A stretch of DNA of 61,463 bases, the filler included, from Pirum gemmata (taxonomy: Eukaryota): the NCBI GenBank assembly GCA_002812295.1. It is 13 parts of 13 records of this genome, joined end to end, with 100 filler letters (N's around TTAATTAATTAA, not from the genome) between each part and the next. Parts side by side here need not be neighbours in the genome. Positions count along the whole stretch, not along the records: positions 42,350 to 47,544 come from PDIN01001083.1; 12 more parts are not named here. One strand, given 5' to 3'. The notes under the pieces are model-generated. The model did not search any database. It saw only the letters and a program-made list of their open reading frames with translations, and was not told the DNA's origin. The number at the start of each line of letters is the position of its first letter. The first letter of the stretch is position 1. A program made the position numbers and the translations under genes. This document shows, in pieces, positions 42,844 through 46,642 of the stretch.

Positions 42844-44100
42844 TTAATGATCCGATAATAACAAAGGAGTTCTTTCATCATCATCATCATTATCATCACC
42901 ATCATCACCATCATCTTCTTCATCGTTATGCACCCCGTTAGATTCCTTTGTGTTCAGGTTTAAAACCCAAATCCACAGCATATTGTGGTATTTCTTCATA
43001 GGGGGGGTGATGAAATTCATTAATCCGTTGGTGAAATAATGATTAACAAACCAAGCAGCCGCATAAACCCAAATCGTATAAACTATTTGGATCACGGCCA
43101 CATGCGGAACATTGATCAGTAAATCCGTAAACTTTGGTTGAAAATGCACTTGGGCATAAAGGTTTCTTAAGCCGGGGGTAGGTAGCATATTAGAACTTAG
43201 CGGATTACCAACCACACAAATCGTGACGTGCATTAAGTAAATTTCTAAAGAAACCTTGCCAATATTTTGCATGATTTCATTATTAAAGAAAAAAGCTGTG
43301 ATTAAGCTTGATTGTGTTCCGTAAAGTAGCATTAACGACATGCAAAAGAACAACATTTGTAACCAAGTAACTATGTTCCCATCCATGGCGTTGGAAGGGA
43401 TTTTGTATATCGGGATACCGGGGTACGCCGCTACCCTAAAGAAAGGGTAAAACGTAAAAGAAACAAAGCCACCAAAGATGATCAAAGCCACCAACGAACG
43501 GAATAAATAATTCTTTTGATACCAAGCAATAGGATATACCGATTTACCAATTTCATCCCAGTTAAACCTTTCTAACGATAAGAGCATTTGTCCCAACACT
43601 AATCCCAATGCGTACCAAAACGAATGTGAAATATACATATACCCACTTAAGTTAAAGTTAGCCATGTTCGCAAATTGGACAGCTTGATAACCATAAGCAC
43701 TCAGGGTTATAACGAAAAAGAGGATTATGCTGTACACTAAATCAATCACCATGGAAGTTTTGGCGCTAACTTTCTCACGTAGAAATCTACCAGGTCCACT
43801 CACTACGAAATGAAGTAACGGTGTAAACCAGGAAAGAATCCAAAGTAACGACACAAACCAATATATGTTTATTTCTTGAAAGAAAAAAGTAAGTCCTAAC
43901 ATCGTAATCACAAATTCAGCACCATCACTACGACCGGGGGGCTTGTTTGGTACCGCGAAGTGGCCCATTTGAACGGAATAAGGAAATACCGTTAAGATAA
44001 ACACAAGCCAAAGGACAGGGAAAAAAGCGAGAAACTGTGAAAAGTAAAATTGTAAATAAAACTTCACGGCGTGTTTCCATTGTTTAGTGGTAATTTGTAG

Positions 44101-44132
<32 letters not shown>

Positions 44133-46642
44133 CGAATTTAAGTATCGCGGTTAAACCAGAAATCATCATAAGACCAACCGTACTAAAATAGATACCCCCA
44201 CTGCTGAATTTACCATACGGCATAACTTCACTTTCATTATAATGCTCAAAACATACCATTAATACAAAAAACCCTCGAAAAGCATTCAACACGGTGAAAT
44301 TACGGGTAGGTTTGTTACTACTACTACTACTAAGTCCTTTCTCTTCTCGAACACGATGTTCTTCTTTGGCTTTATTAACTACCAAAAAACCCAATTCAGT
44401 GATAGATTGTAGTTGTAACAATTGTTTTAATGTGAGTTGTACATGAAAACTTCCGTTTAATTTTTTAAGAAACATGACCGCACCTAAGGAATCCAAACCA
44501 ACAACTTGTAAGTTGTTATCACGATTCACAGTGGCCCCCGTCATCTCCTCCACCAACAAACATATTTTAGAACATGCTTTATCAACATCAGATTCGATAT
44601 CATGAAGATCACGATGATTATGATGATCATGATGATCGTTGCTTTCCATTTCAATGGTAAACTCGTCATGTTCCGTATCATAAAACAAGTTTAAAGCCTT
44701 TTTATCTATTTTACCATTTGGTGTTACCGGAAATGTACGCACTATTCTAAAATCAGCAGGTACCATATAGCTGGGAAGCTGTTTAAGCATGTATTTTCGT
44801 AGTTCTCGTTTTAAACCCGAAAAGGAATCGTTATCTTTTGCAATTTTTATATAAGCTATTAATACAGATTCTCCCGCAAAATCCTCACTGTTTTCTAAAA
44901 CTGTAACCACGGCGGTTTCTATTTTGTTGTGTGATTCCAAAGTATTGGTAACTTCTCCTATTTCAATTCTATAACCTAAATAAAGGCATATATATATATA
45001 TATATAAGCAAAATACACACAAAACGAAACTAGAAAGCAAAGAAAGAAGAAGAAGGACGGCTTTTGGAATTATAAGGAAAGGGGAAAAGAACTAAAATCA
45101 CTTGGGAGTACAGAAGAACGGAAAGAAAAAAGAAGAAAAAAGAAGAAAGGGGTGTATTATCATTTCAAAGTGATGATTAGTTTTAATTAAATTTTGTTAA
45201 TTATTTCAAAACAATCAAAATTACCTCGTAATTTTATCTGTTCATCTACTCTAGCGACAAATACGATATTGCCATCTGCCAATTTCTTCACTAAATCCCC
45301 AGTATCATAAATTCTAATATTCCCATGAGTAAAAAACTTTTCAGAAGTTAATTCTGGTCTTTGCCAATACCCTGTGGCCAAGCAATCACCTAAATATACA
45401 ACCGGAAATAAAGATTGGATTAATTAAAAGGGCAGTGAAAGCGCACACCGGTATAGGAACGATTACAGAAAGAAAGAAAAGCAAGGAAAAACAAAGAAAG
45501 AAGGAGAAAAGGAGCAGAAAGGTAAAAACTATTTTAACTTTTTAAATACTCCGATCGGAGTTGTTGGTCATATTATGAAATATACAAATACATACTTTTC
45601 TTGATGATAATTAGTTAATCGATAATAATTCTCTTTGAAAAGGTCTTTTTTAATCAATCAAAATACTTTTCTTGATTATTAATTGACGATATTTGTGAAA
45701 GGGGGTTAACCGATGATAATTGTTTTTAATTAAAAGTGCTTAATTTCATATGATTTGTCTCTTAATTAATTGTTAAAAGCTGGTAGTAATTGTGCTAATT
45801 GTGCTAATTGTGCTAATTGTACATGTGGTACTTTTCTTTTTTTCTTTTTTGATTTTAATTGAAATTGAATTCTTCTCTTGATCATGGTTTTTTCTTGATT
45901 GTTGATAAATTGGTGATTATTGCTTTACTTAATTAATTAATTATTAATCTTTTACGTTTTTTCTTTTCTTTTTAGGTGATTTTAATAATTAATGATAAAT
46001 ATTATACGCGTTTTAGATTATTATAATTATAAATACGGTTTTTTTTTTTGAAAAATGAATTACCAGAAATAAACAGTTGCCCTACTTCTCCATCGGGAAC
46101 AGGATTCATATTGCTGTTTAATACATAAAAACTTATGTGTTGCAATGGTGTTCCTATCGGAATATCCTTGACAATAGCATCAATACTTTGGCATTTTGGA
46201 AATTTATAAAAAGCGGACCAAATGGTAGCTTCGGTGGGACCATACACATTAAACATATCTTTCACCTTGGGTAAAAGCGTCAACAATCCGGTTTGAAAAG
46301 CTTCACCACCACAAAGTAGCGTTAAATCGGGATCTCCTTGCCAACCATGGGTCATTAACATCTTAAACGTGGCCGGGGTGGCTTGCAAATGCGTGACGGG
46401 GCATTTGGTGGTGGCGGTGGTTCTGGTTTGCAAAAGTTGCTTTAATTGTTCGCCATGGTTTTGTGCCCGTCGTGAGGCTACTTCTAAATGCGCCCCACAG
46501 AGTAAAGGAAGAAAAAGTTCCAACACGGAAATATCAAAACAAAACGTGGTCACGGCTAAAAGAGAATGTCCGGGACCCATTTTTAATACTTCCATAAACG
46601 CGATCAACGTTTTTAATACTGTTCGGTGTTCAACCATTACCC
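42844..46642 (-). CDS. NRPS-like adenylation - carrier (T) - acyltransferase-3 membrane fusion protein, 5'-partial, three exons
   Basis: Exons 46642-46064, 45389-45225 and 44975-42844; introns 46063-45390 and 45224-44976 are GT-AG, phase 1. A-domain motifs: [38 protein letters not shown]^[18 protein letters not shown]^[26 protein letters not shown] domain: GLDSL (Ser codon 44490-44488). AT3: [16 protein letters not shown] (R-X10-H), LMMISG, WFVSLLW...[13 protein letters not shown], with roughly ten hydrophobic segments. Confidence 0.92.

What the first reader, a model, noticed from the sequence alone, without database searches (positions are those of the whole stretch)
42844..46642. One-polypeptide A-T-AT3 system: candidate trans-membrane aminoacylation (glycylation) machine in a eukaryote
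Seen: splicing three exons gives one frame with an NRPS adenylation domain, a carrier domain (GLDSL) and, where a C, TE or R domain would normally follow, a multi-pass acyltransferase-3 domain with the R-X10-H motif. Known: AT3 proteins move acyl groups from a cytosolic thioester onto extracytoplasmic glycans. Bacteria decorate surface polymers with amino acids using separate A, carrier and membrane-transferase proteins (DltA/C/B with an MBOAT; AlmE/F/G with a lipid A acyltransferase-family enzyme). Inference: this gene fuses the whole relay, loading an amino acid on its own pantetheine arm and passing it through the AT3 domain to a cell-wall, surface or lumenal acceptor. Spliceosomal introns and a polyQ insert show it is a eukaryotic nuclear gene. 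I know of no characterised eukaryotic enzyme with this architecture, but I cannot search to confirm novelty. The N-terminus is missing, so further upstream domains are possible.
Basis: partly seen in the sequence, partly recalled or inferred. Interest (0 to 1): 0.92.

Follow-up and report, generated by a model that had tools for sequence, protein, structure and literature searches.

The report
Self-loading glycine membrane transferase in protists
A spliced gene of a single-celled eukaryote joins an amino-acid-activating enzyme, a carrier arm and a membrane acyltransferase in one protein, which likely loads glycine onto itself and would pass it across a membrane onto a surface sugar or lipid, much as multi-protein bacterial envelope-decorating systems do.

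Summary
Observation confirmed. Three minus-strand exons splice (GT-AG) into one 957-residue frame: NRPS adenylation domain, carrier domain, AT3 membrane domain, all above Pfam cut-offs. Contigs of two runs from two studies lack both introns and run from the A domain into AT3 helix 2. The pocket code DILQLGVIWK differs by one residue from each of two glycine-binding A-domain structures. The membrane part models onto the HGSNAT/TmAT fold. The fusion is a family: Abeoforma and Pirum (ichthyosporeans), another EukProt protein and metagenome contigs share it. Fused members keep R-X10-H, but 8 of 8 replace the TMH3 arginine that binds CoA's 3'-phosphate with G/A/S, against 37 of 40 R/K in bacterial AT3s. 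That fits a carrier-tethered donor. Best reading (about 0.5): glycyl transfer to a lumenal or surface acceptor. Substrate, acceptor and direction are untested. This scan noted A-T-AT3 fusions before on other DNA (several bacteria, one alga); a spliced, glycine-coded eukaryotic clade is what is new here. None of 8 literature searches found the architecture described.

The parts
46064..46642 (-). Exon a: core of the NRPS adenylation domain (end of A3 to A6; pocket residues D-I-L-Q-L-G-V-I-W)
   Evidence: PF00501 83.8 bits; TIGR01733 116 bits, below its whole-protein cut-off of 317 because it is a fragment; best PDB hits 4ZXH, 5U89; code read
46643..46902 (-). 3' part of an upstream intron, cut by a microsatellite and an N at 46903; the 5' exon(s) are missing
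   Evidence: AG acceptor at 46644-46643; spliced contigs go on upstream by 261 nt (X2) and 553 nt (X3), with the A3 motif
45390..46063 (-). Intron, 674 nt, GT..AG
   Evidence: skipped in X2 and X3, kept in X1
45225..45389 (-). Exon b: A6-A8 region of the adenylation domain
   Evidence: TIGR01733 62 bits; translation
44976..45224 (-). Intron, 249 nt, GT..AG
   Evidence: adjacent record positions 867/868 (X2) and 1304/1305 (X3) (table 8)
42844..44975 (-). Exon c: A C-terminal subdomain, carrier domain, AT3 domain, acidic tail, stop
44710..44946 (-). A C-terminal subdomain with the A10 lysine (NGK)
   Evidence: PF13193; motif position
44392..44568 (-). Carrier (T) domain; phosphopantetheine-site Ser162 at 44490-44488
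   Evidence: PF00550 28.3 bits; model aligns to carrier proteins such as 4NEO, Z 11.6
43018..44307 (-). AT3/TmAT-fold membrane domain, about 10-11 helices
   Evidence: PF01757 38.9 bits; Atlas 0.95 to eukaryotic AT3 clusters; HGSNAT 8JKV Z 15.3, rmsd 5.6, 304 aligned; hydropathy
44242..44277 (-). R-X10-H motif of helix 1 (R233, H244)
44026..44037 (-). Degenerate RxxR motif of helix 3 (Q313-F-L-A316)
44101..44130 (-). Ten-glutamine insert between helices 2 and 3
43228..43251 (-). SxxxYxxH motif of helix 9 (S575, Y579, H582)

Best explanation
The gene encodes one membrane-bound protein with an adenylation domain, a carrier domain and an AT3-fold membrane domain; it likely activates glycine with ATP, would hold it as a thioester on its own phosphopantetheine arm, and is predicted to feed that arm into the membrane pore, where the glycyl group would be passed to an acceptor on the lumenal or outer side, most likely a surface or wall glycan or glycolipid. 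Shown: gene structure, domain order, pocket residues, kept R-X10-H and SxxxY motifs, lost RxxR motif, and no predicted membrane helix between carrier and helix 1. Inferred: glycine as substrate (pocket likeness), holo-carrier formation by a host PPTase, use of the carrier instead of acyl-CoA (motif loss plus fusion), direction of transfer (family knowledge). Least constrained: the acceptor, and ester versus amide product.
For: Single spliced frame and contigs that run A-T-helix 2. Code DILQLGVIWK against DILQLGVVWK (AB3403) and DILQLGLIWK (DhbF A1), read from the alignments; both listed as Gly in PMC11253843 (passages). All 10 rows of the eukaryote-like A clade carry DILQLGV[I/V]W. The A-T-AT3 order recurs in Abeoforma P0035, Pirum P0040 (A-T-T-AT3), EukProt P0022 and contigs L039 and L024; the last-exon product aligns to P0035 over 651 residues at 26%, so the fusion is old and kept. 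In the TmAT fold the donor enters from the cytosol, TMH1-Arg sits at the cytosolic side and the thioester reaches the TMH1 His (PMC12423673 section 6 part 1; PMC9833829 passages). OafB Arg74, the second Arg of RxxR, is part of the pocket for CoA's 3'-phosphate, a group that a carrier-bound arm lacks. It is G/A/S in 8 of 8 fused rows that cover the column (6 distinct genes; 3 of 11 rows are fragments with a gap) and R/K in 37 of 40 bacterial AT3s; H244 is kept in all 8 of those fused rows and 40 of 40 bacterial rows.
Against: No activity data. The fused rows are kin, so the arginine loss may be one inherited event. The 40 bacterial rows were picked by Pfam score, which favours the consensus, and the proper control, the nearest stand-alone eukaryotic AT3s, could not be fetched. 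The window protein has also lost the first basic residue of the motif (Q313; K or R in the other 7 rows) and has TMH2 Phe as Leu, so it may be an impaired copy. AT3s tested so far use acyl-CoA, and InterPro classes them as moving groups other than aminoacyl (PMC9558356 passages). Close A-domain relatives end after T (L020, L021) or after A (L022), so the A-T unit also works without AT3. AB3403 was crystallised with glycine only as a representative substrate (PMC10510592). The fold model used 40 bacterial AT3 rows, so its likeness to HGSNAT is partly built in.
Confidence: 0.5

Rival explanations
1. The AT3 domain is a condensation/release domain for a small molecule: carrier-bound glycine is joined to an amine, alcohol or lipid within the membrane, giving a glycyl amide or ester metabolite (Ebony-like logic, recalled), not a decorated polymer.
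For: AT3 stands where a C, TE or R domain ends single-module NRPS-like enzymes. The fold includes the amide-forming HGSNAT. AT3s also acylate antibiotics (PMC9558356 abstract and passages). No SGNH domain is fused.
Against: Most AT3 and TmAT acceptors named in the papers read are extracytoplasmic sugars. No biosynthetic neighbours are seen, but the contig holds only this gene.
Confidence: 0.22
2. The two halves work apart: the AT3 domain is an ordinary acyl-CoA acyltransferase, or only a membrane anchor, and the A-T unit feeds another enzyme in trans.
For: Stand-alone A-T and A relatives exist (L020-L022). The nearest AT3 clusters by features are stand-alone eukaryotic proteins.
Against: The fusion is kept in at least 6 distinct genes down to about 24% identity. 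The CoA-phosphate arginine is lost while R233, H244, S575 and Y579 are kept, which suits neither an ordinary CoA enzyme nor a mere anchor.
Confidence: 0.13
3. Same relay, other cargo: the A domain loads alanine, D-alanine or a small hydroxy or amino acid rather than glycine.
For: Codes predict imperfectly; the Gly-activating AlmE is relaxed towards D-Ala (PMC11253843 passages).
Against: 9 of 10 code positions match each of two Gly-bound structures; the sister bacterial rows have the same code type.
Confidence: 0.1
4. This copy is expressed but catalytically decayed.
For: Both RxxR positions are non-basic, and TMH1 Asp is Asn and TMH2 Phe is Leu; polyQ insert.
Against: Open frame, spliced form in two runs, intact A10 Lys, carrier Ser, R233 and H244; the Abeoforma homologue also has a Gln-rich loop there.
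Confidence: 0.05

Closest known systems
AT3 / Acyl_transf_3 (PF01757) of the TmAT superfamily: OafA, OafB, OatA, Oac; structural kin HGSNAT
   Same: Profile match over the cut-off, about 10 helices, R-X10-H and SxxxY motifs, fold match to HGSNAT
   Different: N-terminal A-T module; RxxR lost; predicted aminoacyl-carrier donor instead of acyl-CoA. The reviews read name SGNH, racemase and NRF fusions, and their passages show no A-T fusion
DltABCD D-alanylation of teichoic acids
   Same: Adenylation enzyme, carrier and membrane transferase acting as a relay (DltA role in PMC11253843 passages; the rest recalled)
   Different: Separate proteins, D-Ala, MBOAT fold unrelated to AT3, bacterial
AlmEFG glycylation of Vibrio LPS
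   Same: Glycine activation by an NRPS-type A domain for envelope decoration (AlmE)
   Different: Three proteins; the transferase AlmG is of the lipid A acyltransferase family (recalled); bacterial
Gly-type NRPS modules AB3403 (4ZXH/4ZXI) and DhbF A1 (5U89)
   Same: Best solved relatives of the A domain (E 3e-32, 2e-26) with near-identical pocket code
   Different: They carry C and TE domains and are soluble
Uncharacterised bacterial AMP-binding + PP-binding + Acyl_transf_3 proteins (Actinomycetota clusters)
   Same: Same three Pfam families in one cluster (scores 0.75-0.81, leads only); earlier scan notes
   Different: None was among the 8 hits of the T-AT3 search over 1.84 billion representatives, so they are not close; their substrate class and any common origin were not tested here
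Drosophila Ebony (A-T plus acyltransferase-fold domain)
   Same: Eukaryotic single-module enzyme that ends in an acyltransferase fold instead of a C domain (recalled; no paper held)
   Different: Soluble GNAT-type domain, beta-alanine, small amine acceptors (recalled)

Membership tests
NRPS amino-acid adenylation domain | Core motifs A3, A4 (FDxS), A5 (NxYGPTE), A7, A8 and A10 Lys | tested here: met
   A3 completed by the X2 loose end
NRPS amino-acid adenylation domain | Glycine-type pocket code | tested here: met
   DILQLGVIWK, 9 of 10 with AB3403 and with DhbF A1
NRPS amino-acid adenylation domain | Measured glycine adenylation | not testable with these tools
   needs an assay
Peptidyl carrier domain | Four-helix bundle with a G-x-D-S serine | tested here: met
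   PF00550 over cut-off; model helices 124-211; match to carriers
Peptidyl carrier domain | Phosphopantetheinylated in vivo; host PPTase present | not testable with these tools
   no genome held
AT3 (PF01757) / TmAT | Profile match over the curated cut-off | tested here: met
   38.9 against 31 bits; Abeoforma homologue 56.1; P0040, P0022 and P0043 fall below at 30.6, 24.5 and 24.7
AT3 (PF01757) / TmAT | 10-helix TmAT fold | tested here: met
   model pLDDT 77; 8JKV Z 15.3, rmsd 5.6, 304 aligned; 8TU9 Z 13.8, rmsd 6.1, 319 aligned; model biased by its bacterial AT3 rows
AT3 (PF01757) / TmAT | R-X10-H in helix 1 and SxxxY in helix 9 | tested here: met
   R233, H244, S575, Y579
Canonical acyl-CoA-dependent AT3 | RxxR in helix 3; D of DxxR; F of FxxxxG | tested here: not met
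   Q313xxA316, N230, L268; so filed as a divergent AT3-fold domain, not a canonical member
Canonical acyl-CoA-dependent AT3 | Acyl-CoA donor and extracytoplasmic sugar acceptor | not testable with these tools
   needs biochemistry
Dlt system | MBOAT transferase, D-Ala code, separate A and carrier proteins | tested here: not met
   membrane domain is AT3, one frame, Gly code; DltA model scores far under cut-off
AlmEFG system | Separate proteins with a lipid A acyltransferase-family transferase (recalled) | tested here: not met
   no such Pfam hit; single frame
Canonical peptide-forming NRPS | Condensation domain and a TE or R release domain | tested here: inconclusive
   none in the sequenced part or in full-start homologues P0022, P0032, P0040; this gene's own 5' end is missing

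The most novel reading that the evidence does not exclude
An old eukaryotic enzyme family, present in close single-celled relatives of animals and in other protists, in which an AT3/TmAT pore has given up coenzyme A for its own tethered carrier and moves an amino acid, glycine, across a membrane onto wall or surface glycans: a one-protein eukaryotic counterpart of Dlt/Alm, and an aminoacyl-transferring AT3.
Probability: 0.4. Interest if true: 0.85.

Novelty: new variant of a known kind. Interest (0 to 1): 0.66.

Why it matters
AT3 enzymes are described as acyl-CoA-dependent and non-aminoacyl, and the eukaryotic ones have no known acceptors (PMC9558356 passages). A self-loading member would widen TmAT chemistry to protein-tethered aminoacyl donors, show an NRPS module that ends in a membrane pore, and point to glycine decoration of protist surfaces. 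One polypeptide holds the whole relay, so donor choice and the role of the lost arginine can be tested directly.

Tried and rejected
Word-index protein searches: the whole last exon gave 18 hits, all on the A-T part only; the AT3 part gave none among near-length or longer proteins. Plasmid tblastn: no hit for the window AT3; NRPS hits only for A-T; the 6 weak hits to L039 were followed for 2, of which L042 is a stand-alone AT3 beside glycosyltransferases and L043 shows similar frame sizes, not read. Genome searches for bacterial fusions: 121 genomes of one phylum with PF01757 (2 long frames read, no fusion; 2 more fetched, not read); 201 genomes of another with the L039 T-AT3 (1 weak hit, 374-aa frame); 4 genomes with the window T-AT3 (0). 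These samples did not target Actinomycetota, so they say nothing on that family. A metagenome scan with the last exon found nothing. None of 15 genome loci for the A domain had a fused membrane domain within the DNA held. Single-sequence fold was unusable (pLDDT 42). Foldseek listed only A/T matches among the rows shown. No run is on record as RNA. No complex prediction was run, and the model's coordinates are not given, so the Ser162-His244 distance was not measured. Whether the AT3-SGNH gene elsewhere in the window is expressed stays open. Rejected: artefact of mis-splicing; bacterial contaminant (introns); a link to the flanking pieces, which are separate scaffolds.

Full report
Gene structure. 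The finding lies on a 4.55-kb scaffold piece (42350-46902) in a window made of unrelated pieces. On the minus strand, exons 46642-46064, 45389-45225 and 44975-42844 are separated by GT-AG introns of 674 and 249 nt with stops in all frames; joined, they give 957 residues and a single terminal stop. The junctions restore adenylation motifs on both sides. The last exon's 709-residue frame compares with a maximum of 161 in 200 shuffles. Pfam gives AMP-binding, AMP-binding_C, PP-binding and Acyl_transf_3, all over their cut-offs.

Splicing. Three of 7 listed runs hold the stretch, from three studies; none is on record as RNA. I laid 4 of them. X1 keeps the introns and may be the window's source. 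Contigs of X2 (1879 nt) and X3 (2172 nt) join both junctions and cover 44142 upward, that is the A domain, the carrier, and AT3 helices 1 and 2. All three runs break at the polyQ repeat; a second contig covers 42930-44087 at similar depth, so the link across the repeat rests on the window's frame. Upstream, X2 goes on with the A3 motif, absent from the window. X3 goes on for 553 nt, about 184 codons, close to the roughly 180 residues that precede this point in the Pirum homologue. This fits a protein of about 1150 residues without further domains but does not prove it.

Substrate. The best solved relatives of exon a are AB3403 and DhbF A1, both listed with glycine (PMC11253843, passages); AB3403's glycine was a representative ligand (PMC10510592, passages). 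The pocket code DILQLGVIWK differs from each at one position. Glycine is a prediction.

Family. A metagenome scan with exon a gave 22 loci. Two with enough downstream DNA, L039 and L024, continue from T into an R-X10-H membrane domain and show GT-AG introns; L020 and L021 stop after T, L022 after A, and the other members of this clade end too early to tell. The L039 frame clusters with a 1252-residue EukProt protein, P0022, that is A-T-AT3 from its first residue (lineage not given). A full HMMER search with T-AT3 gave 8 hits among 1.84 billion representatives: three from Pirum gemmata, one from Abeoforma whisleri, one metagenomic T-AT3 fragment, two carrier-only matches and one unrelated protein. 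Abeoforma P0035 is A-T-AT3 and Pirum P0040 is A-T-T-AT3. In a 27-row A-domain tree the window groups with Pirum and Abeoforma at 100/98 (55% and 49% identity) and with 8 further rows at 90/89. A 36-row tree on a shorter stretch gave 96/94 for the window plus 9 such rows, all with the code DILQLGV[I/V]W, next to bacterial Gly-type domains; 25 short or intron-broken hits were left out. The rows were found with the window's own sequence, no clade test or rooting was done, and one row is labelled bacterial (L001), so origin and direction of transfer are not claimed. The host is likely an ichthyosporean (inference from the nearest named relatives).

Membrane domain. By features it is nearest to stand-alone eukaryotic AT3 clusters (0.94-0.95). 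A model from a 51-row alignment (11 eukaryotic or eukaryote-like rows, 40 bacterial AT3s; pLDDT 77) matches HGSNAT at Z 15.3 (rmsd 5.6, 304 aligned) and Z 13.8; the bacterial rows bias the model towards this fold, and Z near 13 can be common for helical bundles. No hydrophobic segment lies between carrier and helix 1, and helix 1 starts at the cytosolic side in TmAT proteins (PMC12423673, passages and section 6 part 1 of 2), so the carrier should sit on the donor-entry face. R233, H244, S575 and Y579 are kept. The helix-3 RxxR is not: its second Arg, OafB Arg74, which helps bind CoA's 3'-phosphate in simulations (PMC9833829, passages), is G/A/S in 8 of 8 fused rows covering it (6 distinct genes; 3 fragment rows have a gap) and R/K in 37 of 40 bacterial rows (40 of the 65 matches, taken from the best 43). 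A carrier-bound phosphopantetheine lacks that nucleotide part (general knowledge), so the change fits a switch of donor. The fused rows are kin and the control is score-selected, so this is suggestive only. The window copy also has Gln at the first position, where the other 7 rows have K or R.

Mechanism. Most likely (0.5): glycyl-AMP, then glycyl-S-carrier, then insertion of the arm into the pore and transfer near His244 to a lumenal or outer acceptor. Rivals: small-molecule or lipid amide/ester formation (0.22), independent halves (0.13), another small substrate (0.10), a decayed copy (0.05). Nothing here identifies the acceptor.

What is known. It works like Dlt and Alm but is a member of neither, and it fails the RxxR test for a canonical acyl-CoA AT3. 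Literature: searches for the architecture returned no paper or listings whose titles and abstract starts did not show it; two more searches were for background. The AT3 review PMC9558356 (abstract and passages) has no word starting with 'AMP' and names SGNH and racemase fusions; PMC10794256 (passages) concerned PKS acyltransferases only. Supplements were not read and most subscription journals are not held, so a description may exist there. Ebony and AlmG details are recalled.

Verdict. Real, spliced, conserved, and apparently uncharacterised: a new variant of carrier-fed envelope aminoacylation, or at least a new way to end an NRPS module. Interest 0.66.

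Noticed in passing
window, whole: The window is a chain of unrelated scaffolds of about 4.5 kb joined by N44-linker-N44 spacers, so neighbours across spacers give no context.
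   Followed up: yes
window 14324-16627 (-): A bacterial-type AT3 frame (PF01757 89 bits) with intact RxxR, followed in another frame by an SGNH domain (PF19040 44.5 bits): an OatA/OafA-like gene in the same assembly. Splicing and expression unchecked.
   Followed up: partly
window 46904-47517 (+): Unknown-function frame beyond the single N. It lies on another contig of run X2 than the A-T-AT3 gene and has a second copy with 15 differences in X1 and X3. The two genes may be head to head, with both 5' ends in the gap.
   Followed up: partly
window 4677-8664 (-): Spliced P-type ATPase (PF00122; P5 type by recall).
   Followed up: no
window 23802-25163 (+): vWA + EGF protein with a likely signal peptide and C-terminal membrane helix.
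   Followed up: no
window 40612-42231 (-): 539-residue multi-pass membrane frame with no Pfam family over cut-off.
   Followed up: no
L026:770-910, L027:390-570, L031:1230-1320, L033:1100-1420: Four freshwater-type metagenome A-domain relatives share a GT-AG intron at the same codon, just before the GGE motif; the window gene has none there.
   Followed up: partly
L001 (2.1-kb contig labelled Candidatus Berkelbacteria): Its A domain nests in the eukaryote-like clade; a mis-binned eukaryotic contig or a real bacterial member, unresolved.
   Followed up: partly
L039:10210-12171 (-): A glycosyltransferase-61 gene lies about 1 kb downstream of the A-T-AT3 homologue; one case only.
   Followed up: no
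P0040, P0032, P0033 (Pirum gemmata): These homologues have two tandem carrier domains before the AT3 domain.
   Followed up: partly
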